This document shows, one piece after another, positions 27,159-62,010 of a stretch of 64,000 bases of DNA. The notes below the pieces were generated by a model. The model worked only from the letters and a program-made list of their open reading frames with translations, searched no databases and was not told where the DNA came from. The DNA is from a virus. Its lineage: Duplodnaviria > Caudoviricetes. The stretch spans positions 128,001 through 192,000 of IMG/VR virus record IMGVR_UViG_3300025012_000029, one strand, 5' to 3'. Both the position numbers and the translations under genes were made by a program. The first letter of the stretch is position 1. Each line of letters begins with the position of its first letter.

Positions 27159-28829
27159 TTATTCAACACTGTCAAAGTATTCTTTAAAGGTATTATAATT
27201 TGACTCTCCTATAACATCTTTAAATTCATGGAAAACATCACGTTCTTCGCGCCTTCGACGAAGCATTTTGTCTGGATCGGAACTTGTGCTTAATCCGTCT
27301 GGATTATAATAATAAAGTCCCAATATTTTATTAACCTTCTTAAAAAGAGAACCAGCTCTAACAGCTCGCAACCATAACTCCCAATCTCCAGCGTGTTTGA
27401 GTTTTTCATCCCATAGTCCCGCTTTATCGTGAATAGATTTACGATATAGAGGTAGGGGTCCGGGAAGACATTTGATCATATTTTCTCTGGAAAAATCCAT
27501 TCGAGAGTGTTCATACAATCTTCCTTTTGAAGAATTTTGTTCAACTGTTTCATTAGGTTTTGTCGTTTGAAGACAATCCCCATATACCAAATCGATTTCT
27601 GGATTCAACATTAAGTGTTTTGCTAGTGTTTCTAAATGATCGTTCGCCATCCTATCATCAGCCAACACACATGCTATAAATTCCCCGGACGCAAGTTTCG
27701 TTGCTTCATTAAATGCTTCCATTGGAGTTATTTGGGTGTTTTTTCTAATATATTTAATATTGTCTGTATGCACTTGTATATATTTCGAAATTATTGAGAC
27801 TTCATCATCTGGAGAATTGGCATCGATAATGATTAATTCAGAATCGTCTGATATTGTTTGTGCTACAAACGAATCCATAAAACCTTTAATATGTTCCTTT
27901 GCTTTATAGATTGTCGTAATAACTGAAACTTTGGGAAGTTTTACTGAATTAAATTTTTCCACTTCTTTATCTTTGATTACTTTCTCAAACAAATCAATTG
28001 TTTTTTCTTTTCTTCCGGCAATATATTCTAATAACTCTTCGCCCTTTAATTTGAAAAAATCTTCTGATGCGCATCCTAAAGCTTTGTTTGTTATTAATTT
28101 ACAACCTAGAATTCTAGCTTCAATCGCGACCCTACAAAATGTTTCAATCCATGTAGGAAAAAACACCAACGTTTCTGTTTTGGCAAGTTCATCAAAAAAT
28201 CTATCTTGATCACAAAATGGAATTAATTCATAATTTATTTTATTCTTTTTACAATATTGTATTGCTTCGGGCATGCCTTTATTTTTATTATTGGATTGGA
28301 TAATACCAACTTTTCTATTCTTCTTTTTTCCAATATTGTTGCGAAGGACTTCAACTGCTTCATCAGACCATATATTACATCCAATATTGACAATATTTTT
28401 GAGAAGAAGATTTTTCTCCATTATTTCAGCATGCATCTTGCTTTGACAAAAAACTGCTTTCGCTGATTTAAAAAATTGTTTATTCTGTATTTGATCTTCA
28501 GGAACAACAAGATTTGGAAATAATGCTGGGTTATTTGATTTGAATGCCTTCCAATCATTTTCAACTATCAAATAATTTATTTTTTCATTAATCAGTGTTT
28601 GTTTACTATCTTCTGGTAATAGCATAAAATTTGATATTATCCAAAAACAATCTTTATTGTCTTTTAGCAAGTTAGAAGTACATTCAACACTTTTAAGTTT
28701 TTCTAATTCGAATCCACGTTTCTGCAGAGACTTTATTTGTTCTTCTGCGCACAACTCGGCACCGCCACAGATTTCATTAGCAAAATAGTCAGCAACATAA
28801 ACAACTTTTTTAGTATTAATCATACGCAA
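27159..28829 (-). CDS. Two-domain glycosyltransferase (GT-B-like + GT2)
   Basis: ETFCRVAIEA (GT4 E-x7-E type); C-terminal VSVITTIY, IDANS, LADD, GDWELWLR. Confidence 0.85.
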   Translation of the reverse strand: MRMINTKKVVYVADYFANEICGGAELCAEEQIKSLQKRGFELEKLKSVECTSNLLKDNKDCFWIISNFMLLPEDSKQTLINEKINYLIVENDWKAFKSNNPALFPNLVVPEDQIQNKQFFKSAKAVFCQSKMHAEIMEKNLLLKNIVNIGCNIWSDEAVEVLRNNIGKKKNRKVGIIQSNNKNKGMPEAIQYCKKNKINYELIPFCDQDRFFDELAKTETLVFFPTWIETFCRVAIEARILGCKLITNKALGCASEDFFKLKGEELLEYIAGRKEKTIDLFEKVIKDKEVEKFNSVKLPKVSVITTIYKAKEHIKGFMDSFVAQTISDDSELIIIDANSPDDEVSIISKYIQVHTDNIKYIRKNTQITPMEAFNEATKLASGEFIACVLADDRMANDHLETLAKHLMLNPEIDLVYGDCLQTTKPNETVEQNSSKGRLYEHSRMDFSRENMIKCLPGPLPLYRKSIHDKAGLWDEKLKHAGDWELWLRAVRAGSLFKKVNKILGLYYYNPDGLSTSSDPDKMLRRRREERDVFHEFKDVIGESNYNTFKEYFDSVE

Positions 28830-31326
28830 TAACTTCTTTCAATAAGGGATTAACTTCTTTTTCTTCTTTCAGAAAATCCGCAATATCTACAATTGGATAA
28901 TATTCATCTACACAATCGGCGAAATGTGTCAACATCTTATCGGAATCAAATTTGTCTAACACATATTCTTGAAGTTTGTTTGCTCGCGATTTACAAGAAC
29001 CATAATTTTTGTAAACTTCCCTCATTTGTTGTTTAGCATCAATTTCTCTAGGAAAGCACCATTGTGCATCAGGAATAATTATTCCATCCCAAACTGCTTC
29101 TGGTTGAACATTTTTAATATCGTACGCTACGTTAGAAATCATACATGTATTTTTGATTTTATTCTTTTTCTTATCTTTTATTGGCATATAAATAAAATCA
29201 TTTTGTCCACTCCATGCGGGGGCAACTATCGGCAATCCATTATATGCTGATTCAAACATTGGAAGACAGTTGTGCACCATAAAATTTTCAGTACAATAAG
29301 TTTCGTCTTCTTCAACAGAAAGGTTGAATACTTTACCAGCGTGCTGAAATTTAGTAATATTTTTTATTCTCAGCAAAAAACAATCTTCTTTTTCTTTAGT
29401 TCTTCCAGATTGTTTTTCATTAAACGAATCTGCCAACTGCAGTGTGTCGTATATTACAGTATTAGAAGTATGTTTATTTAACATGGTTACAAATTTATTA
29501 ATACTTTCTTTTTTTCCAATAACTAACGAATGAATTTCACTCTTGTAATTCCATTTTTCTTTAATAATTCCTTCTCGGGTGCACATTTTATAGGAACATA
29601 ATATTCCTTGTTCTAATAATAATATTCTAATTTGTCTCAATAATGTTTTATTGACAAGTTGTACCTCTATAGATGGATTCTTGTAATTTTTAGTATTAAT
29701 ATATCCATCTCCTTCAAATAAAGCAGTAATCATTCCCTCTTTAAATTCATTAGGAAACGAGAAAACGCAATCACTAATAACTTTATTTTTTGATTTATTT
29801 CCCAATAAAGATTTGAAAAATAAAGCCACAATTTTATTGTGAAATACAATAACAGAACATTTTTTATTTTTTCTTTTTTCTATCCTAAAATGTTCTATCC
29901 CGAATATATCTTTCATGCAATTGATAATTTCTTTTCCAAAAGAATCAATTTCTTTATCATGAAGAGAAAAAGCAATAATTCTATCATCAGATACACATCC
30001 TTCGGCTAAAAACCATCCACACAATCTACCAAATTTTTTATCAATATTGATATTATTTTTTATTTTTAGGCCAAGTTTATTTGAATGCATATAAAAAATA
30101 TCTTCATCGTTTAGTACTAAATTTTTTTCATTTTTTACGTGTTCAAATATATCAATATTGTTAATGATATTTTCTTTTTTTGACATTTTTGGCAAAACCA
30201 AATAGTCATTTTGTTTTAATTCATCGCTTCTTTTCCACAAGAATTCTTTATTTTTATTATCATAAATGTAAACATTGTGATTCGGCGTTAAAACAATTGG
30301 TTCCATAGGTACTGCACAATATGGAACAATTTTAATCATCTCGCCAGAATATTCACGAGACATAGGAGTTATAACTTTTCGATATCGATTTCTATGAGTC
30401 AATACTAAATCTCCAGATTTAATATCGATCAATTTCTTAAGTCCTTTGTCTGTAATAATTGGAGTATAGTCCAATCCGCAGAAACCTTCTCCGTGCGTTA
30501 AACTAATGAAAGCTTTAATTTTTGGATGTCTATAAAGAAAAGTCATTTCTTCCTCTCTTAAATCTCCATGTAAAAGATGTATAGCACATTTTCGTTCTTT
30601 TCCATTAAATTGAGATAAAACATCATTAACTCTATTTTGAGTCATTTCTCTATCCATTAATGATTGATTAACGGAATTGACTTTCAATATTAATCCAACT
30701 TCTTTATTCATAAACTCTTCAACGAACCATTTAATTGTATTTTCAACATTCTTTCGTGGTCCCCATTGAGCTACAGTTAGAAAATTAAAATCATACTTAA
30801 AATCAACATTAATTGGTTTTGGTTCTACAATTCTAACCGGATAAGGAACAACTTCCATTGGCATCTCAAGTTTGGCAACAAATTGTCTTCCTGTAACATT
30901 ATCTGTCGCTGGAAACTGCGCATTGGTAAAACCAAATTTAGAATGATTAGATGTTAATAGAATTTTGTTTACATTGAAACATCCCTGAAACCATTGAGGT
31001 GAAATTTTAGTTGTTTCAATTCCAGCAGTATATCCAATATTAATTGGAGCCATTTTTTTCCACTCATTTGGGATACAAACTTGTAATGATATATCAAACT
31101 GTCCACCTTGTTGTTGATAAACAAGAGTTTTTTGAAGAATTTGATCAATCCAGCGGCGCTCTTCTGTATCTTCCCATGTCCAACTTGTTCTACCCCAAGG
31201 GGTATTAATGAGATATATGTCAAATCGTTCTGGAAACTTTCGAAGAGCGGAAAGAGCAAAACGACTCTGAACACCATAACCGCTTTGGCTCAAAAAAGGT
31301 CCCCTCATTATGATTTTTTTAGTCAT
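28816..31326 (-). CDS. GT4-like glycosyltransferase containing an intein
   Basis: SGYG, QWGPRKN; the motif EGF|CLPMFES is restored after intein removal. Confidence 0.9.
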   Translation of the reverse strand: MTKKIIMRGPFLSQSGYGVQSRFALSALRKFPERFDIYLINTPWGRTSWTWEDTEERRWIDQILQKTLVYQQQGGQFDISLQVCIPNEWKKMAPINIGYTAGIETTKISPQWFQGCFNVNKILLTSNHSKFGFTNAQFPATDNVTGRQFVAKLEMPMEVVPYPVRIVEPKPINVDFKYDFNFLTVAQWGPRKNVENTIKWFVEEFMNKEVGLILKVNSVNQSLMDREMTQNRVNDVLSQFNGKERKCAIHLLHGDLREEEMTFLYRHPKIKAFISLTHGEGFCGLDYTPIITDKGLKKLIDIKSGDLVLTHRNRYRKVITPMSREYSGEMIKIVPYCAVPMEPIVLTPNHNVYIYDNKNKEFLWKRSDELKQNDYLVLPKMSKKENIINNIDIFEHVKNEKNLVLNDEDIFYMHSNKLGLKIKNNINIDKKFGRLCGWFLAEGCVSDDRIIAFSLHDKEIDSFGKEIINCMKDIFGIEHFRIEKRKNKKCSVIVFHNKIVALFFKSLLGNKSKNKVISDCVFSFPNEFKEGMITALFEGDGYINTKNYKNPSIEVQLVNKTLLRQIRILLLEQGILCSYKMCTREGIIKEKWNYKSEIHSLVIGKKESINKFVTMLNKHTSNTVIYDTLQLADSFNEKQSGRTKEKEDCFLLRIKNITKFQHAGKVFNLSVEEDETYCTENFMVHNCLPMFESAYNGLPIVAPAWSGQNDFIYMPIKDKKKNKIKNTCMISNVAYDIKNVQPEAVWDGIIIPDAQWCFPREIDAKQQMREVYKNYGSCKSRANKLQEYVLDKFDSDKMLTHFADCVDEYYPIVDIADFLKEEKEVNPLLKEVIAYD
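29269..30480 (-). mobile_element. Class-1 intein (404 aa) with LAGLIDADG endonuclease
   Basis: Cys1 (CGLDYTPIIT), block B TPNH, FLAEG and LFEGDG motifs, ends VHN followed by +1 Cys. Confidence 0.92.
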
Positions 31327-36147: not shown

Positions 36148-38742
36148 TTACAATACCTGCGATGCTATGGTAGCTACGCGACTACGCTCGCCTTTTGTTA
36201 ACGTTACATGTCCAGCAAAATCAAATTCTTTGAATTTTTCTACTACATGAGTTAGTCCATTAGAAGTATCATCGACATGTACGTTATCGATCTGTTCTAC
36301 ATCTCCAGTCAAAACTATTTTACTGTCATTTCCAACTCTTGTTAGGATGGTTTTCATTTCATGCTTAGTCAATGACTGGCATTCGTCAATTATTATATAA
36401 GCATTTTGAATAGATCTACCTCTAATGTATGTTAGAGCTTCAATTTCAATTATTCCCTTCTCCATATATTGAGATAACATTAAATGATCATTGGAAAACA
36501 AAAACCTTAGATTGTCTTGAATTGGAGAAAGCCATGGTAACATCTTTTCAGCTACAGTATTATGTGTAACAATATAATCATCAGTTATATATAAATGCTC
36601 AGGATCATCAATTAGAATGCATTTAACTTCTTTTTCTCCAATATAATTAATTTCTTTTATTTTACTAAAATGTAAATATTTTGCTTTATGTCTATTTGAT
36701 TTTCTAGAAATAAAAAATGGATTAATTGTTTCTGGAAGACTTATTGTAAATTCATATGTACAAAAATTAGATTTAACAATTCTATTATTTATTTTTGTAT
36801 TGTCATTTTCTTTACGAATTTCTCTTTTTCTTAAAATTGATTTACCTCCTAATGAATAAACTAATTCAATAACATCTAATGCCAATTGTTTGCTAGTTGT
36901 TATAAAACCGGCTTCTCCTTTTTCTTTTATTGTGCCATCTGTGTCCATTAATCCTTGCAGTATTGCAATTCTATCTTCTATAGAAGAAAATTTATAAATA
37001 TTAGGAATAAATTTATCATTACATTTTCTGCCTTCTAAACCTAATTTAAATAATTCTTCTTTTATTGGATTGCTCCATTTGTTTTCACAATCTAGAAATT
37101 CATATTTAAAATTATCAATAATAAGTTTTTTATCACATCTACTTTGCAAAGTAGAACGATTAATATCTAATTTTTCTAATGCTTTTCCTATTGAAGAAAA
37201 TTCTATTTCTTCTTTTGTTATAGAATTAGTTATTTTTATTTTTCTAGATGGTTTATTATTTGTTTGATATTTTCTTTTTATATTATAAAAAATTGATTTG
37301 CCAGGATCACCTAAAATACAATCCATCATTTCCAATTCTTTTCTTACTCTATCAATAAGTTCGTTATCTATATTAGATATACCAATACTATTTGATATTG
37401 ATCCATCACCCAATATTGCGCCTAATACATAAGGAGGAATTGGTAATAATTGTTTATTAAATTGTATAGGTTCGTTTCTTGGTATTGAATGATTAATTTT
37501 GTCTCCTATTTTTAATGTTGTTCTAATTTCATTAGTACTGCGTATTTTTCCTTTTTTATTTCTTTTTCTTTCCTCGGATGTCTGGGTATACCACAAATGA
37601 TCATCACAACATTCTGTTTTTCTATTATCAGTAGTTATAATTTCAAAAACTGATTTTTTTCCTTTTGGAAACGTACCAATAACTTTCGAAGGTTTTCCAT
37701 TTTTAGCAATAATATAATTTCCAATTTCAATATCACCCATGGTAGTCCATCCATTGGGAGTTAATATCTTAGCATCTAAAGGTTGTGGGCCAGGCAAAAA
37801 CCCTATATCTCGACCCATCGGCTGTACAGGCCTTGATATAATCAATCTACTATATTTGTGTTCTTTTTCTTTATCTCCGTTTTTTCCATTTCCATTTTTT
37901 AGTGGTGATGACATTAATTGTTGTAAACCAGCAGCTACAGCCAATAAACTCTTTCCACTTCCTGCTTTTCCAATTAAACTTACAACTGGAATGTTAGGAT
38001 CCAATAAAATATCTATGGCAAAACTTTGTTCTTTGTTTTTTGGAGAAATGCCCCAAAGATTTTCACTCTCTTTTACTTTACGAAGAGGAGTATTTTCATC
38101 CATATAGCGCGCAATTGCTGTTTTCTTCTCATTTGCGCTTGACACTAACATTATAAATTGATTACAGTGAAATCGATTTTTTTGTTTAATAGCATCTTGT
38201 TTAGAAATATAAATGTTTTCACCAGAATAAAATCTGTCAATCAATTGATCATCAACTAAAAAAGTTGAGAAGCCAGTGTAGATTTGTGATTTTTCTTTTA
38301 TTGCGCGATTTGGAGTATAGTCTTCTGCTTTTATACCTATAGAGTCGCATTTAACTCTCATATTTATGTCGCATGAGACAACGACAACTTTAGTATTTGG
38401 ATTATTTTTTTGTTCTGTTATGGCAGTAGCAATAATTTGGTGGTCCGGAATAGATGAATCAAAACCAATTGGTAAAACACCAAAATCAAAATTTTTTGCT
38501 AATACAAAGCCACTATTCTTTTTTACTCTAACACCAGTTTGCAGAGATCCTTTCTCCCTTAATGAATCTAATATCCTAATGATTCCACGTGCATTTGTGC
38601 CGACGCTATCCACGCGCTTTTTATGATTATCAATTTCTTCTAAAACTATTAAAGGAATGACAATGTTGTTTGAGCCATATGAAAATATTGAACGAAAATC
38701 AGAAAGATATACGGATGTGTCTAAAATGTATGTTTTTTTCAT
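36148..38742 (-). CDS. phoH: PIN-PhoH ATPase (PhoH2/YlaK type) containing an intein
   Basis: PIN (YILDTS), Walker A GKAGSGKS, IGFLPG|TVAEK after splicing, YIRGRS, DECQ, LTGD. Confidence 0.93.
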   Translation of the reverse strand: MKKTYILDTSVYLSDFRSIFSYGSNNIVIPLIVLEEIDNHKKRVDSVGTNARGIIRILDSLREKGSLQTGVRVKKNSGFVLAKNFDFGVLPIGFDSSIPDHQIIATAITEQKNNPNTKVVVVSCDINMRVKCDSIGIKAEDYTPNRAIKEKSQIYTGFSTFLVDDQLIDRFYSGENIYISKQDAIKQKNRFHCNQFIMLVSSANEKKTAIARYMDENTPLRKVKESENLWGISPKNKEQSFAIDILLDPNIPVVSLIGKAGSGKSLLAVAAGLQQLMSSPLKNGNGKNGDKEKEHKYSRLIISRPVQPMGRDIGFLPGPQPLDAKILTPNGWTTMGDIEIGNYIIAKNGKPSKVIGTFPKGKKSVFEIITTDNRKTECCDDHLWYTQTSEERKRNKKGKIRSTNEIRTTLKIGDKINHSIPRNEPIQFNKQLLPIPPYVLGAILGDGSISNSIGISNIDNELIDRVRKELEMMDCILGDPGKSIFYNIKRKYQTNNKPSRKIKITNSITKEEIEFSSIGKALEKLDINRSTLQSRCDKKLIIDNFKYEFLDCENKWSNPIKEELFKLGLEGRKCNDKFIPNIYKFSSIEDRIAILQGLMDTDGTIKEKGEAGFITTSKQLALDVIELVYSLGGKSILRKREIRKENDNTKINNRIVKSNFCTYEFTISLPETINPFFISRKSNRHKAKYLHFSKIKEINYIGEKEVKCILIDDPEHLYITDDYIVTHNTVAEKMLPWLSPIQDNLRFLFSNDHLMLSQYMEKGIIEIEALTYIRGRSIQNAYIIIDECQSLTKHEMKTILTRVGNDSKIVLTGDVEQIDNVHVDDTSNGLTHVVEKFKEFDFAGHVTLTKGERSRVATIASQVL
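36559..37788 (-). mobile_element. Class-3 intein (410 aa, Pro1) with LAGLIDADG endonuclease
   Basis: Starts PQPLDAK; block B DHLW (Trp), block F VKC (Cys), block G THN (Thr); +1 Thr; ILGDGS and LMDTDG motifs. Confidence 0.88.
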
Positions 38743-49491: not shown

Positions 49492-50850
49492 GTGAACTAC
49501 CCACACACGCCAACGGCAATGGGATGGGCTTCGGGTTTCACAGAGTGTGCTTTGTTGCCAAAGTCTGATTTCCTCTCCACCCTTGTAATGGGCAGTCCAT
49601 GCCCATATATTTTCAATCCTTCTTTAAGTATGTTCCTTGCAGCATTTAAATCACGGTCTAATACGTGTCCATTCTTGCAAGTCCATTTTCTTATAGAAAG
49701 ATTTAAGTCTTGATTTATATAGCCACACTCACAGCAGGTTTTTGACGATGGATACCAGCGATTGATTTTAACGATTTGTTTATCATTCCAATCTGCTTTG
49801 TATTCAAGCAATCTTACAAACGTTCCCCAACTGGCATCTGATATGTGTTTTGCAAGTTTGTGGTTTTTAACCATTCCCTTTACATTCAAATCTTCTAATG
49901 CAATTATATCATAATCTGATACTAATTGACGGGATACTTTGTGTAAATTATCCATTCGTGAGTTGGTTATCTTCTCGTGGATTAAGGCTGTTTTTCGTCT
50001 TTGTTTTTCAAACGAAAAGCTTCCTTTTGTTTTACGAGAAAGATGTTTTTGAGCTTCCGCTAACTTTCTTTCATATTGTTTTGTGTATTTGTTATTCTTA
50101 AATTTAATTCCATCAGAAGTAATAGCAAAGTCTTTTAATCCCAAGTCTATTCCACAAACCGCACCTGTCTTTTCTTTTGGCTGATATTGTTCTTCTGATA
50201 GAATTGATACAAAGTATTTTCCTGTTGGCGTTTTGCTTAAAGTACATTTCCCAATTTCACCTTTTACTTCTCGGTGAACATTAACCTTAATTCCTTCTTT
50301 AAACTTCGGGGCATAAAACCTATCTGCTTCAAGTTTTGCGAATTGAGGAACAGTAAATGTATTTTTCTTTTTCCTTGACTTAAATCGTGGAAACTTAGCA
50401 TTACCACGAAAGAAGTTTACATAGGCAGTATCCAAACATCTTAAAGCAAATTGTAATGATTGGCTGTTAACTTCTTTAAGCCAAACAGTTTCCTCTTTTT
50501 TCTTTAATTCAGTTAGTGTTGCTGCCTGTGCATAGTAATTATCTGATTTTTTGTCTGCTTGATACTGCTCTTTTCGCTCATTTAGAAAATGATTATACAC
50601 AAATCGGGTACACCCAAAGTGCTTTTCCAACAACATCTTTTGCTCTTGTGTTGGTTGTAATTCGAATTTATATGTCCGAAATATTGTTTTCATCTATTAG
50701 TAAATAGTCTATTTTTTTACAAAAATACATCTTTTTCGCATAACCGCTACATTTTTTGTACAAATATTCTTTCACAAGGTTAATTTACTATATTTGTGCC
50801 TTACATCCCATCCACGCTAAAGCAATAAATGGGTTTTACGGCACGTTTTA
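49492..50850 (-). mobile_element. IS200/IS605-family element, tnpB only (IS1341-like)
   Basis: Related subterminal hairpins at 49500-49530 and 50807-50844; right end ...TTCAC; no tnpA; left boundary approximate. Confidence 0.85.
49497..50693 (-). CDS. tnpB: RNA-guided endonuclease TnpB
   Basis: HTH start (FGCTRFVYN), RuvC GIDLG / LEDL / DRDLNAA, Zn ribbon. Confidence 0.95.
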   Translation of the reverse strand: MKTIFRTYKFELQPTQEQKMLLEKHFGCTRFVYNHFLNERKEQYQADKKSDNYYAQAATLTELKKKEETVWLKEVNSQSLQFALRCLDTAYVNFFRGNAKFPRFKSRKKKNTFTVPQFAKLEADRFYAPKFKEGIKVNVHREVKGEIGKCTLSKTPTGKYFVSILSEEQYQPKEKTGAVCGIDLGLKDFAITSDGIKFKNNKYTKQYERKLAEAQKHLSRKTKGSFSFEKQRRKTALIHEKITNSRMDNLHKVSRQLVSDYDIIALEDLNVKGMVKNHKLAKHISDASWGTFVRLLEYKADWNDKQIVKINRWYPSSKTCCECGYINQDLNLSIRKWTCKNGHVLDRDLNAARNILKEGLKIYGHGLPITRVERKSDFGNKAHSVKPEAHPIAVGVCG

Positions 50851-52191: not shown

Positions 52192-52419
52192 CTATGTGTC
52201 TTTTTTAATTGAATTTAATTGTTTAGAATATTCCTCTAATCGTTTATTTAATTCGTTTACTCTCAATTTGATATTTTCTGCTTTTAAAGCATAAATTTCA
52301 CTTTTGAGTTCTTTGATTCTATTCATTAAAGACTGAATATCTTTCCATCTCCTTGCCGAAGAATATATGTTTATGTCATATTCTATGTGATTAACAGAAC
52401 CACTTATGCTCATTTTCAT
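52192..52419 (-). CDS. Hypothetical coiled-coil protein
   Basis: IYSSARRWKDI motif. Confidence 0.65.
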   Translation of the reverse strand: MKMSISGSVNHIEYDINIYSSARRWKDIQSLMNRIKELKSEIYALKAENIKLRVNELNKRLEEYSKQLNSIKKDT

Positions 52420-53222
52420 TACATATTTTCACCAAGAATATTAAAGAATTCAGGACGATTTTTTGACCAAGTAATATTGGGACGATTCGCATTCTTTTTA
52501 AAAGTCATTGGGTCGGTAACGTAAGCATTCATATAAGATTCTAGTAATGTTATTGTTTTGTCGTATGTTCTAAATGAATTCCAAAATGCCCTTCCGAATG
52601 TTGTTCCATACGAAACATGATCGTCGTCTGTAGCAGAAATAAAAATGTATTCAGATAGCCGTTCCTCATCTTCAATGGTTCCCCAATAACAGAAATCAGT
52701 AAATACAATACCAATACGTGGATTTATTGTTGATAATATTTCTATAAACATTTCCTTAGTGAGATTTTCTACTTTATTGAGAGCAAAAGCTGACTTTCTT
52801 ATATTTCCAACTTTATTTCCATGTCCAGTCATATAAATAAGCAAAGAATCATTTTCCGTTACATGTGTTTTAAGCCATCCAAACATAATCAAAATTGATT
52901 TTTCATTGGTTGAGTCTGTGATTGGGAATACCGCCGGGTTCCCACCCTCCGAGTCAAAAATGAATATATCCCTTCTATTATATCCTTGTTCTATGAGCAC
53001 CTGGTATGCTAGTGAAAGATTATTCCTATGTCTATCTTCAGAATTGCCAGCAATCAAAACAGCATAATGATGCTGTGCTTTATCTTCGTTAGCGCCGAGA
53101 AGCTTTAATCTATTTTCCAAACGAATTGGAGATGGGGGAATGTAAACTGAATAAGTCATGCGGAATGTTTCCGCACAACCTACTGTTAGCAGTAACAAAA
53201 TATAACTGAATAGTTGCCACAC
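52419..53222 (-). CDS. Caspase-hemoglobinase fold cysteine peptidase (C13-like), probable lipoprotein
   Basis: YMTGHG and TDFCY dyad; GTG start at 53222 gives an LTVGC lipobox. Confidence 0.75.
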   Translation of the reverse strand: MWQLFSYILLLLTVGCAETFRMTYSVYIPPSPIRLENRLKLLGANEDKAQHHYAVLIAGNSEDRHRNNLSLAYQVLIEQGYNRRDIFIFDSEGGNPAVFPITDSTNEKSILIMFGWLKTHVTENDSLLIYMTGHGNKVGNIRKSAFALNKVENLTKEMFIEILSTINPRIGIVFTDFCYWGTIEDEERLSEYIFISATDDDHVSYGTTFGRAFWNSFRTYDKTITLLESYMNAYVTDPMTFKKNANRPNITWSKNRPEFFNILGENM

Positions 53223-53239
53223 ATAATAAGTAGTGTTAA

Positions 53240-53307
53240 CGGAAAGTGTGAGAATCGAACTCACTCAGGAAATTTAGCAAATTTCCGTCTCTCCAAGTAG
53301 ACTTTCC
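53240..53307 (-). tRNA. Atypical short tRNA-Ser(GCT)-like (68 nt)
   Basis: 7-bp acceptor, perfect T arm, loop TTGCTAA; weak D arm and 3-nt variable region. Confidence 0.55.
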
Positions 53308-53311
53308 AAAA

Positions 53312-53385
53312 TGTTTCGGGGTGGATTCGAACCACCATCGCCCACGCCTTCAACGTGGCGCTCTACCAATTGGAGCTACCGAAAC
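53312..53385 (-). tRNA. tRNA-Phe(GAA)
   Basis: Cloverleaf; CCACG-TTGAAGG-CGTGG. Confidence 0.92.
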
Positions 53386-53465
53386 AAAAAGCCCCATTAC
53401 AAGGCTTATGTTACGACATAAATGTCTTATTTATTTAAGAATTTTCTAATTGTTAGGTTTCGAAA

Positions 53466-55063: not shown

Positions 55064-55069
55064 TCTCCA

Positions 55070-55145
55070 TGAACACGAAAGGATTCGAACCTTTGCTGTC
55101 CGACTGATTTCTCTCCCGGATGCCGTCCCGCTTGGCTACGTGTCC
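55070..55145 (-). ncRNA. tRNA-like RNA with 12-nt anticodon loop
   Basis: Normal acceptor, D and T arms; TCCGG-GAGAGAAATCAG-TCGGA has no readable anticodon. Confidence 0.6.
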
Positions 55146-55155
55146 AATATTTAAA

Positions 55156-55793: not shown

Positions 55794-55864
55794 TACTGGG
55801 TAGGGGATTTGCACTCCTGCGAAAGGTATGTAACACCTTCATGCTACTTTTACATCAACCCAGT
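55794..55864 (-). tRNA. tRNA-Val(TAC)
   Basis: AAGGT-GTTACAT-ACCTT; T loop TGCAAAT. Confidence 0.75.
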
Positions 55865-58392: not shown

Positions 58393-58935
58393 TTAATCGG
58401 ATAATTCTCCATGCCAATATAAGCATGTTGCCATATAGTCTCTCCATGAATCTGGAGCACCTTTATTCCAAAATATAGTTTGGAAGATGTTCTTTGGTTT
58501 ACTTGGAATAGATAACAAAGTCATTCCAGATTTATGAAGAGGTTTATCTTGTTTTCGTCTATTACAATCTACACAACAAACGACAACATTTTTCCATTCC
58601 GTTATCCCACCTAATGCCCTTGGAACAATGTGATCTAGTGTAAACTCTTCTGTCGTACAATGAGTTCCACAATATTGGCATTTTCCTTTATCTCTTGCAT
58701 AAACATTATCTCTTGAGAATTTTACTCTTCTCACTTTTTTGAAAACGTTTTTGACAAATCTGATAATGGAAGGAACTTTGAATGCTTGATGAGCTGAGCG
58801 AACCCATAAGTCAGCATATTCTTCTACAATTTCAACCTTATCCATCATATAAAGACAAAAAGCACGTTGCCAGCTAATAATTCCTAGTGGTTGATATGAA
58901 GTATCGAGCACTAGCGTTTTTGCGTTCACATCCAT
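58393..58935 (-). CDS. HNH endonuclease (McrA-like)
   Basis: CQYCG..TLDHIVPR..GG..W.NVV.CC..CN..K; start MDVNAK after AAGGA. Confidence 0.9.
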   Translation of the reverse strand: MDVNAKTLVLDTSYQPLGIISWQRAFCLYMMDKVEIVEEYADLWVRSAHQAFKVPSIIRFVKNVFKKVRRVKFSRDNVYARDKGKCQYCGTHCTTEEFTLDHIVPRALGGITEWKNVVVCCVDCNRRKQDKPLHKSGMTLLSIPSKPKNIFQTIFWNKGAPDSWRDYMATCLYWHGELSD

Positions 58936-58954
58936 AATTCTTTTCCTTTTTAAG

Positions 58955-59032
58955 TGGAGCGCAGGGGAGTCGAACCCCTTTCCGAAAAACTCCATTTGTT
59001 GGATTATCTTTCGTCGAAACCATTAGCGCCCC
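58955..59032 (-). ncRNA. tmRNA tRNA-like domain without mRNA-like domain (78 nt)
   Basis: 5' GGGGCGCTAATGGTTTCGAC, G3-U70, no D stem, short capped P2, T arm AGGGG-TTCGACT-CCCCT, A73. Confidence 0.75.
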
Positions 59033-59440: not shown

Positions 59441-59514
59441 AGGATAGGGAGGGACTTGCGCCCACTAAAATTCGTTTTGCAGACGAATGCCTCGACTACT
59501 TCAGCTTCCTATCC
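59441..59514 (-). tRNA. tRNA-Cys(GCA)
   Basis: TTCGT-CTGCAAA-ACGAA; U73. Confidence 0.85.
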
Positions 59515-60160: not shown

Positions 60161-60323
60161 CCATTGGGGAGTCAGGGATTCGAACCCCGCTACCGCAAAC
60201 CAGTATCGCTATTTGTTAACGCGGACTTGTTTTACAGACAAGTGCGATTAACTCACCGTTTAGTATACATTCCACTTCGGTATACTAGCGAACTGAACTT
60301 CTTGTCAATCCTCTCTACAATGG
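60161..60323 (-). ncRNA. Expanded tRNA-Tyr(GTA)-like RNA (163 nt)
   Basis: CTTGT-CTGTAAA-ACAAG and CGGGG-TTCGAAT-CCCTG intact; D arm and variable arm greatly enlarged. Confidence 0.65.
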
Positions 60324-61064: not shown

Positions 61065-61138
61065 TGCTCACAGAGAGATTCGAACTCCCAACGCACACGG
61101 TCTAAACGTGTTGACTCTACCAATTGGTCTATGTGAGC
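61065..61138 (-). tRNA. tRNA-Leu(TAG), short variable loop
   Basis: ACACG-TTTAGAC-CGTGT; 5-nt variable loop. Confidence 0.85.
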
Positions 61139-61463: not shown

Positions 61464-61537
61464 GTTGTATGATGAGAATTGCACTCACTAACAACAGCTT
61501 CACAGGCTGTCCGCTAACTATTTTGCGTTCATACAAC
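61464..61537 (-). tRNA. tRNA-His(GTG)
   Basis: ACAGC-CTGTGAA-GCTGT; G-1:C73. Confidence 0.88.
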
Positions 61538-61639
61538 ATAGCAATAATAAATAATATTTACTTTTCATTTAACTCATCACAACAAAAACAACAAGAAAAA
61601 AAGTTGTTATTACAATTGGAATGTATTTTATATCCATAG

Positions 61640-61723
61640 TGCAGGTAGAGGGACTCGAACCCCCACGCCCTCACGGGCGGAAGCTCTTAAGGCTTCTGCG
61701 GCTGCCAATTACGCCATACCTGC
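61640..61723 (-). tRNA. tRNA-Leu(TAA)
   Basis: GAAGC-CTTAAGA-GCTTC; long variable arm. Confidence 0.93.
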
Positions 61724-61936: not shown

Positions 61937-62010
61937 TACCTTTGATCAGATTCGAACTGATAACAATTTGTTTTTGAGACAAATGACTCTACCAATTGGT
62001 CTACAAAGGC
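61937..62010 (-). tRNA. tRNA-Leu(CAA), short variable loop
   Basis: TTTGT-CTCAAAA-ACAAA; 5-nt variable loop. Confidence 0.85.

What the first reader, a model, noticed from the sequence alone, without database searches (positions are those of the whole stretch)
53240..53307. 68-nt tRNA-Ser(GCT) with no variable arm and a collapsed D arm
Seen: perfect acceptor, anticodon and T stems, but a 3-nt variable region and no canonical D stem. Known: the long variable arm is the main SerRS determinant, and D-armless Ser(GCU) tRNAs are typical of animal mitochondria, not bacteria. Perfect stems argue against random decay. The two other Ser tRNAs here are normal.
Basis: partly seen in the sequence, partly recalled or inferred. 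Interest (0 to 1): 0.6.

Follow-up and report, generated by a model that had tools for sequence, protein, structure and literature searches.

The report
Conserved armless phage tRNA(GCU)
A large groundwater phage carries a shortened 68-nt tRNA for the serine codons AGC/AGU that lacks the extra arm textbooks call universal for serine tRNAs outside animal mitochondria, and a second, distantly related phage keeps the same odd design with matching paired changes, so it is maintained by selection and is not a decaying gene.

Summary
Window 53240-53307 (minus strand) is a 68-nt tRNA gene with a GCU anticodon. ARAGORN calls it, and Rfam tRNA scores 33.4 bits. The acceptor (7 bp), anticodon (5 bp plus a Watson-Crick 26:44 pair) and T (5 bp) stems are perfect. 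The variable region is 3-4 nt, and 4 nt are missing where the acceptor stem meets the D arm. A perfect D hairpin (GUCU/AGAC, 8-nt loop with G18G19) can still form, but only by taking G6 and U7 from the acceptor stem. The two folds are isoenergetic.

The gene sits in a set of about 33 tRNAs in a 201-kb T4-like groundwater phage and is the only AGY decoder there. One homologue was found, L030:44-111, in another groundwater phage array. It differs at 18 of 68 positions. Sixteen lie in stems: seven double compensatory pairs, one G-C to G-U and one A.C. G6-C21, the anticodon loop and G73 are invariant. It is the best conserved of seven shared tRNAs.

Most likely it is a working AGY tRNA, probably serylated through its Ser-like acceptor end. 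Charging is untested, and an arginine-type identity (A20, C35, U36, G73) is a real rival. No expression data exist. This scan earlier noted unrelated class-I GCU tRNAs on other DNA. I call it a new variant of a known kind.

The parts
53240..53307 (-). 68-nt tRNA gene, anticodon GCU, no encoded CCA (followed by UUA)
   Evidence: ARAGORN; Rfam tRNA 33.4 bits; own covariance model R1 97.1 bits
53301..53307 (-). acceptor stem 5' strand GGAAAGU (RNA 1-7); pairs with 53241-53247
   Evidence: Pairs 4-69 and 5-68 change on both sides in the homologue; pairs 1-3 (G-C, G-C, A-U) are invariant
53287..53302 (-). invariant 16-nt block GUCUACUUGGAGAGAC (RNA 6-21): D hairpin whose first two bases double as acceptor bases 6 and 7
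   Evidence: Identical in the window and L030; P of no change in a given 16-nt block is 0.003; the two folds are isoenergetic; unique in the window
53268..53286 (-). anticodon arm: 6-bp stem (including the 26:44 pair) and loop UUGCUAA; anticodon GCU at 53276-53278
   Evidence: Three pairs change on both sides, including 26:44 (G-C to A-U); the loop is invariant
53265..53267 (-). 3-nt variable loop UGA (AGA in the homologue); no long variable arm
   Evidence: Sequence; alignment
53248..53264 (-). T arm GUGAG-UUCGAUU-CUCAC
   Evidence: Two pairs change on both sides and one goes G-C to G-U; the T loop is standard
53240..53247 (-). acceptor 3' strand ACUUUCC plus discriminator G73
   Evidence: G73 is invariant in both homologues
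53312..53385 (-). ordinary tRNA-Phe(GAA) 4 nt (UUUU) upstream; probable co-transcript
   Evidence: Rfam 54.9 bits; sequence

Best explanation
This is a functional, selection-maintained phage tRNA with a non-canonical core that decodes AGC/AGU. INFERRED: it is transcribed with the neighbouring tRNA-Phe as part of the minus-strand tRNA array, cut out by host RNase P and 3' nucleases, and given CCA by the host enzyme. The phage encodes neither CCA nor a CCA-adding enzyme. SHOWN by covariation: a standard 7+5-bp acceptor/T minihelix (the part bound by RNase P, the CCA enzyme and EF-Tu), and a 6-bp anticodon stem carrying an invariant U33-GCU-A37-A38 loop. SHOWN by sequence: no long variable arm, and no 8-9 connector. 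G6 and U7 can close either the acceptor helix or a perfect D stem. The conserved G18G19 and UUCGAUY T loop would still allow the elbow contact. INFERRED: host SerRS charges it through the acceptor-end serine determinants it keeps (G1-C72, G2-C71, G73), probably less efficiently than a long-armed tRNA-Ser. It supplies AGY decoding for the phage's 1089 AGY codons. Why the odd shape is kept is not known; escape from a host tRNA-targeting nuclease and tolerated reduction are both possible.
For: - Detection: ARAGORN and Rfam both detect it.
- Homologue: L030:44-111 is also 68 nt with GCU and sits in a syntenic but rearranged array next to a 45%-identical peptidase gene.
- Pattern of change: of 18 differences, 16 are in stems, with 7 pairs changed on both sides and 97% of cells paired. 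Slid controls give 0-1 such pairs. Random substitution keeps at least 17 of 18 pairs in 0.1% of trials. Only 2 of 32 unpaired positions differ.
- Relative conservation: it is the most conserved of 7 shared tRNAs, about 74% against 53-62%.
- Role in the set: it is the only GCU tRNA in a near-complete set; no long-armed Ser(GCU) is present.
- Codon use: AGY makes up 24% of Ser codons and encodes conserved Ser in the major capsid protein at S381 and S509.
- Serine-like traits: GGA...UCC plus G73 occurs in this array only in the Ser tRNAs. G1-C72 and G2-C71 are near-universal in bacterial tRNA-Ser (PMC9976931). The D loop UUGGAGAG matches D loops of phage long-armed Ser tRNAs.
- Plausibility: E. 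coli HisRS, EF-Tu and the ribosome accept a D-armless tRNA (PMC11551756).
Against: - There are only two homologues, so pairs 6-67 and 7-66 and the D region carry no covariation.
- No expression or aminoacylation data exist.
- The long arm is the main SerRS determinant, and C11-G24 is absent. R4-Y69 and G30-C40 are each met in only one homologue.
- The phage encodes no SerRS of its own.
- The arginine set A20, C35, U36, G73 is present by alignment.
- The adjacent peptidase gene uses 0 of 16 AGY codons.
- The higher identity to L030 could reflect recent transfer and not stronger constraint.
Confidence: 0.5

Rival explanations
1. It is an arginine-charged tRNA. It would be a class I body recognised by ArgRS through A20, C35, U36 and G73, perhaps descended from tRNA-Arg(YCU) by a change at position 34. 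It would insert Arg at AGY serine codons as deliberate or tolerated mistranslation.
For: The bacterial Arg set is A/G73, A20, C35, U/G36 (PMC9976931 Table 1). With the GUCU/AGAC D stem the loop reads A14 C15 U16 U17 G18 G19 A20 G21. The body is class I in size. NCU to GCU is one substitution. This scan earlier noted an Arg-like GCU tRNA on a prophage (e1-1577399).
Against: AGY encodes conserved Ser in the phage's own capsid protein and is used at a normal rate there, 9 of 32 Ser codons. The pair at 3-70 is A3-U70, not C3-G70. No Arg tRNA is among its 12 nearest in an 81-tRNA phage panel, whereas Ser and Tyr class II tRNAs are (a weak test). The phage's ordinary Ser tRNAs also have A after G18G19. 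The antisense partner described for e1-1577399 is absent here. The missing 8-9 connector may misplace A20.
Confidence: 0.12
2. It is a tRNA-shaped RNA that is not an adaptor. It could be a decoy or sponge for a host anticodon nuclease or another tRNA-binding defence protein, or a regulatory or processing element. On this reading it keeps only the minihelix and the anticodon arm.
For: The features under clear selection are exactly the minihelix, the anticodon stem-loop and an invariant 16-nt block. The main SerRS determinant is missing. The same array holds other class II anticodons on class I bodies, Leu(UAG) and Leu(CAA) at 74 nt, and a tmRNA tRNA-like domain without a message part. Phage tRNAs that counter tRNA-cutting defences are known (leads).
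Against: The anticodon loop is that of a standard AGY decoder (U33, U36-A37-A38). G18G19, the T loop and G73 are conserved. It fills the one empty serine box of an otherwise near-complete set.
Confidence: 0.18
3. It is a decaying pseudogene: a tRNA that lost 4 nt by slippage between two GU repeats (GGAAA[GUnn]GUCU) and is drifting.
For: The 4-nt gap is exactly what a GU..GU slip would give. Rfam scores are low, 33.4 and 26.5 bits. No homologue turned up in IMG/VR, INPHARED or 185,579 species genomes.
Against: The same 68-nt design is kept in a phage whose neighbouring protein is only 45% identical. It shows 7 compensatory pairs, near-invariant loops, and higher conservation than six ordinary tRNAs.
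Confidence: 0.06

Closest known systems
Animal mitochondrial tRNA-Ser(AGY/GCU)
   Same: GCU anticodon for AGY codons, no long variable arm, a reduced acceptor/D junction, an anticodon stem extended by a 26:44-type pair, and a short variable loop.
   Different: The mitochondrial tRNA lacks the D stem altogether and has lost G18G19 and T-psi-C; a specialised mt-SerRS that reads the T loop charges it (PMC9976931). Here G18G19, a standard T loop and a complete but shared D stem are kept, the context is a phage of bacteria, and no dedicated SerRS is encoded. This is convergent at most, not homologous.
Bacterial and phage class II tRNA-Ser (for example this phage's own Ser(UGA) and Ser(CGA))
   Same: G1-C72, G2-C71, A3-U70, G73; D-loop motif UUGGARAG; standard anticodon loop and T arm.
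   Different: No 15-20-nt variable arm. A 4-bp/8-nt D arm in place of 3-bp/10-11-nt. No C11-G24. No 8-9 connector.
Bacterial tRNA-Arg(UCU/CCU)
   Same: Class I size, A after G18G19 (A20), C35, U36, A37, A38, G73.
   Different: G34 makes it read AGY and not AGR. A3-U70 stands in place of C3-G70. It does not resemble the three Arg tRNAs of this phage.
tRNA-Pyl and mammalian mt tRNA-Ser(UCN) compact-core tRNAs
   Same: 6-bp anticodon stem, 3-nt variable loop, and a shortened connector between the acceptor and D stems (PMC7609411).
   Different: Those keep one connector base, have a small D loop and lack G18G19/T-psi-C. Here the connector is zero and the D and T loops are standard.
Engineered D-armless 'mini HisT' in E. 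coli (Edelmann et al. 2024, PMC11551756)
   Same: [quoted passage not shown]
   Different: It is artificial, it is a histidine tRNA, and it needed a pnp mutation for stability. That paper states that all known bacterial tRNAs are canonical cloverleaves.

Membership tests
tRNA (Rfam RF00005) | Score at or above the gathering threshold of 29 bits | tested here: met
   33.4 bits for the window copy. The L030 copy scores 26.5 bits, below threshold.
tRNA (canonical cloverleaf) | 7-bp acceptor stem and 5-bp T stem with a T-psi-C-type loop | tested here: met
   Both are perfect, with 4 pairs changed on both sides between the homologues. The T loop is UUCGAUU/UUCGAUC.
tRNA (canonical cloverleaf) | 5-bp anticodon stem and 7-nt loop with U33 and a purine at 37 | tested here: met
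   The loop UUGCUAA is invariant, and the stem has 3 covarying pairs including 26:44.
tRNA (canonical cloverleaf) | A separate 3-4-bp D stem joined to the acceptor stem by the two connector bases 8 and 9 | tested here: not met
   Four nt are missing. The D stem GUCU/AGAC shares G6 and U7 with the acceptor stem.
Bacterial tRNA-Ser (class II) | Long variable arm, the major SerRS determinant | tested here: not met
   The variable loop is 3-4 nt in both homologues.
Bacterial tRNA-Ser (class II) | G73, C72 and G2-C71 at the acceptor end | tested here: met
   Invariant in both homologues. The identity set is from PMC9976931.
Bacterial tRNA-Ser (class II) | C11-G24, R4-Y69, G30-C40 | tested here: not met
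   11-24 is U-A in both. A4-U69 is present only in the window copy and G30-C40 only in L030.
Bacterial tRNA-Ser (class II) | Charged with serine by SerRS | not testable with these tools
   This needs an aminoacylation assay. AGY does mean Ser in phage genes.
Bacterial tRNA-Arg | A20, C35, U/G36, A/G73 | tested here: inconclusive
   All are present if the D loop is numbered from the GUCU/AGAC stem. However, position 20 depends on an uncertain fold, and C3-G70 is absent.
Bacterial tRNA-Arg | An arginine anticodon (NCG or YCU) | tested here: not met
   The anticodon is GCU in both homologues.
Mitochondrial D-armless tRNA-Ser(AGY) | No D stem; loss of G18G19 and T-psi-C; partnered with a specialised mt-SerRS | tested here: not met
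   G18G19, a standard T loop and a potential 4-bp D stem are present. The phage has no SerRS.

The most novel reading that the evidence does not exclude
This is a natural, translation-competent tRNA outside mitochondria that carries serine without the long variable arm and works without the 8-9 connector, its bases 6 and 7 being shared between the acceptor and D helices. If so, either ordinary bacterial SerRS can use acceptor-end determinants alone in vivo, or the host has an unrecognised mode of tRNA-Ser recognition. It would also mean phages have explored tRNA shapes thought to be confined to animal mitochondria.
Probability: 0.35. Interest if true: 0.8.

Novelty: new variant of a known kind. 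Interest (0 to 1): 0.62.

Why it matters
[quoted passage not shown] A phage tRNA(GCU) that breaks both rules yet is kept by selection would be a natural test case in three ways:
- How much of the tRNA core bacterial SerRS or ArgRS, EF-Tu, RNase P and the ribosome really need.
- How identity is kept or switched when the main determinant is lost.
- Whether phages reshape tRNAs to escape host tRNA-targeting defences.

It is also a compact natural scaffold of possible use for orthogonal tRNA design. Standard annotation (Rfam with default filters) misses it.

Tried and rejected
**Searches for more homologues that found nothing**
- Four pattern scans of IMG/VR found none. The five hits are a protein-coding chance match.
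- Two pattern scans of 185,579 species genomes found none. The three hits are not tRNAs.
- blastn of the 68 nt against INPHARED gave only T-arm fragments.
- Model R1 was run on five IMG/VR relatives (major capsid protein 54-57% identical) and on seven INPHARED records, including huge phages. It found only ordinary tRNAs. LR756511 has a normal 91-nt Ser(GCU).

**Searches through neighbouring genes**
- The peptidase and exonuclease genes have no relatives in IMG/VR or INPHARED.
- Peptidase homologues at 56-63% identity exist on 36-220-kb contigs (P0002-P0009).

**Sequencing runs**
- No RNA holder is listed.
- An identical copy lies in a second groundwater study, but this adds no variation.

**Readings considered and rejected**
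- An alternative acceptor register starting further upstream, and ARAGORN's 8-bp stem using U-1.G73. The downstream base is not conserved, and covariation fits the 7-bp register.
- A phage SerRS, CCA-adding enzyme or T4-type RNA ligase. None was found; the ligase search had no positive control.
None was found.
- A clear class I parent within the array. None was found.

Full report
**What is there**

ARAGORN finds 27 tRNA genes on the minus strand of window 53.2-63.7 kb. The first is tRNA-Ser(gct) at 53239-53308, with its anticodon unusually early, at position 31. Rfam's tRNA model matches 53240-53307 at 33.4 bits (gathering score 29) in the permissive scans. The fast-filter whole-window scan missed it.

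The RNA reads:

GGAAAGU-CUACUUGGAGAGAC-G-GAAAU-UUGCUAA-AUUUC-C-UGA-GUGAG-UUCGAUU-CUCAC-ACUUUCC-G

- The acceptor, anticodon and T stems are perfect.
- G26-C44 extends the anticodon stem to 6 bp.
- Three bases form the variable loop.
- The discriminator is G, and no CCA is encoded.
- Only 14 nt lie between the acceptor stem and position 26, against 18 in a standard tRNA.

Rfam aligns the 5' part as GGAAA----GUCU. This means a perfect, canonical D hairpin exists: G10-C25, U11-A24, C12-G23, U13-A22, with loop A14 C U U G18 G19 A G. Its first two bases, however, are also bases 6 and 7 of the acceptor stem. ARAGORN instead draws a 3-bp CUU/GAG stem. Nearest-neighbour energies do not separate '7-bp acceptor, open D region' from '5-bp acceptor plus 4-bp D stem': -17.1 vs -17.2 kcal/mol here, and -18.0 vs -18.0 in the homologue.

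**Context**

The window is bases 128001-192000 of a 201,144-bp IMG/VR virus record that CheckV rates complete, with about 33% G+C. Its major capsid protein is gp23-like. The nearest relatives are uncultured huge phages, a Microcystis phage and Rhodothermus phage RM378, at 33-38% identity. Runs that hold the DNA are groundwater metagenomes from two studies.

Adding the Rfam-only hits (His, Cys, Val, a Tyr-like gene) gives a near-complete set of about 33 tRNAs. It contains no long-armed Ser(GCU), so this gene is the only AGY decoder. It lies 4 nt (UUUU) after an ordinary tRNA-Phe and about 80 nt before a peptidase C13-like gene. The phage encodes no SerRS core or N-terminal arm and no CCA-adding enzyme.

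**Is it maintained?**

No close relative of the phage is in IMG/VR or INPHARED. A profile of the neighbouring peptidase, however, recovered a 3.7-kb groundwater contig, L030. Its peptidase is 45% identical, and its tRNA array shares the order Gln(CUG)-Val-Thr(CGU)-Thr(GGU) with the window. At L030:44-111 ARAGORN calls a 69-nt tRNA-Ser(gct) with its anticodon at position 30. The Rfam and R1 match there is 68 nt.

The two copies align without gaps and differ at 18 of 68 positions:
- Sixteen differences lie in stems. Seven pairs changed on both sides (4-69, 5-68, 26-44, 29-41, 30-40, 50-64, 52-62). One went G-C to G-U, and one became A.C.
- Overall, 97% of cells pair. Sliding the partner by 1-3 columns gives 0-1 double changes.
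- Random substitution keeps at least 17 of 18 pairs in about 0.1% of trials.
- Only 2 of 32 unpaired positions differ, one in the variable loop and one in the T loop.
- G6-C21 (16 nt), the anticodon loop, the rest of the T loop and G73 are identical.
- At about 74% identity this is the best conserved of seven tRNAs shared by the two arrays; the others are 53-62% identical.

The 4-nt deficit and the missing arm therefore predate the split of the two phages, and the structure has been under purifying selection since. That rules out simple decay. The limit of this evidence is that there are only two sequences, and the disputed D region does not vary.

**What does it do?**

AGY makes up 24% of the phage's Ser codons (1089 codons). 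It encodes Ser at conserved positions of the capsid protein: S381 is Ser in 7 of 8 relatives, S509 is Ser or Thr, and neither is ever Arg or Lys. AGY therefore means serine in this phage, and an efficient decoder must carry serine.

Points in favour of serine identity:
- The molecule keeps G1-C72, G2-C71, A3-U70 and G73. In this array that combination occurs only in the Ser tRNAs, and G1-C72/G2-C71 are near-universal in bacterial tRNA-Ser (PMC9976931).
- Its D loop UUGGAGAG matches those of long-armed phage Ser tRNAs.
- In a crude comparison with 81 phage tRNAs, its nearest neighbours are mostly class II Ser and Tyr, and never Arg. This test is biased by length.
- From my own knowledge, cited only in the review's reference list: E. 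coli SerRS charges acceptor minihelices weakly (Sampson and Saks 1993; Saks and Sampson 1996).
- E. coli HisRS, EF-Tu and the ribosome accept a D-armless tRNA (PMC11551756).

Points against:
- The long arm is the main SerRS determinant, and C11-G24 is missing.
- By alignment the RNA carries the bacterial arginine set A20, C35, U36, G73. ArgRS charging is a real rival.
- A non-adaptor role as a decoy for a tRNA-binding defence protein also cannot be excluded.

My estimates are: about 0.85 that it is a functional structured RNA, about 0.5 that it is a serine adaptor, 0.12 that it is arginine-charged, 0.18 that it is a non-adaptor, and 0.06 that it is a pseudogene.

**Comparison with known kinds**

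It works most like animal mitochondrial tRNA-Ser(AGY): GCU anticodon, no long arm, reduced D junction and extended anticodon stem. It fails that family's defining features, because G18G19, T-psi-C and a D stem are all kept and there is no special SerRS. It also shares the 6-bp anticodon stem and 3-nt variable loop of tRNA-Pyl and mt tRNA-Ser(UCN) (PMC7609411). It is a tRNA by Rfam score and by three of four arms, but not a canonical cloverleaf and not a class II tRNA-Ser.

I found no paper describing such a phage or bacterial tRNA. Mukai et al. describe 8/4 phage Ser tRNAs that keep the long arm. This scan has earlier noted class I-bodied GCU tRNAs on other, unrelated DNA (e1-1577399, e1-4469908) and a phage Arg tRNA with a relocated D arm (e1-174093).

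**Limits**

No RNA run is listed for this DNA.

Noticed in passing
window 58952-59032 (-): An 81-nt RNA matches Rfam tmRNA at 54.5 bits (gathering 47) across model ends 1-374. It has the tmRNA tRNA-like domain only: GGGGCGC.../...GCGCUCC-A with G3.U70 and a GGUUCGACUCCCC T arm. It has no message or pseudoknot part and no encoded CCA. It overlaps the start of an HNH endonuclease ORF (58393-58995).
   Followed up: partly
window 61065-61138 (-) and 61937-62010 (-): tRNA-Leu(UAG) and tRNA-Leu(CAA) are 74 nt with short variable loops and A73, so they are class II anticodons on class I bodies. Both share the D arm UAGACCAAUUGGUAGAGUC, which is close to that of tRNA-Phe (53312-53385). Leu(UAA) at 61639-61723 is a normal 85 nt. 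The relatives L012 and L013 have a 74-nt Leu(UAA), and L015 has an 84-nt Thr(CGU).
   Followed up: partly
window 55069-55146 (-): ARAGORN's tRNA-Ser(AGA) (Rfam tRNA 46.5 bits) has normal acceptor, D and T arms. Its anticodon stem UCCGG/UCGGA closes a 12-nt loop, GAGAGAAAUCAG, so its anticodon is uncertain. No Trp tRNA was found in the array.
   Followed up: partly
window 60165-60257 (-), 61464-61536 (-), 59441-59514 (-), 55794-55864 (-): These are tRNA genes that ARAGORN misses but Rfam finds: a 93-nt Tyr(GUA)-like gene with an odd D region (27.3 bits), His(GUG), Cys(GCA) and Val(UAC). The last has an orthologue at L030:1270-1341.
   Followed up: partly
window 52419-53159 (-): The peptidase C13-like gene just downstream uses no AGY codon among its 16 serines, against a genome average of 24% (P about 0.01 if independent). 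Homologues occur in groundwater phage contigs and in deltaproteobacterial MAGs.
   Followed up: partly
window 49497-50693 (-), 28816-31326 (-), 36148-38742 (-): There is a TnpB/IS605 OrfB-type gene in the phage. Intein plus LAGLIDADG insertions sit in two genes, one of them a PIN-PhoH fusion.
   Followed up: no
window 53389-53407 (-): A terminator-like hairpin, AAGCCUUGUAAUGGGGCUU followed by UUUGUUU, ends 3 nt before tRNA-Phe. The Phe-Ser(GCU) pair may therefore be made by read-through or from its own start.
   Followed up: no
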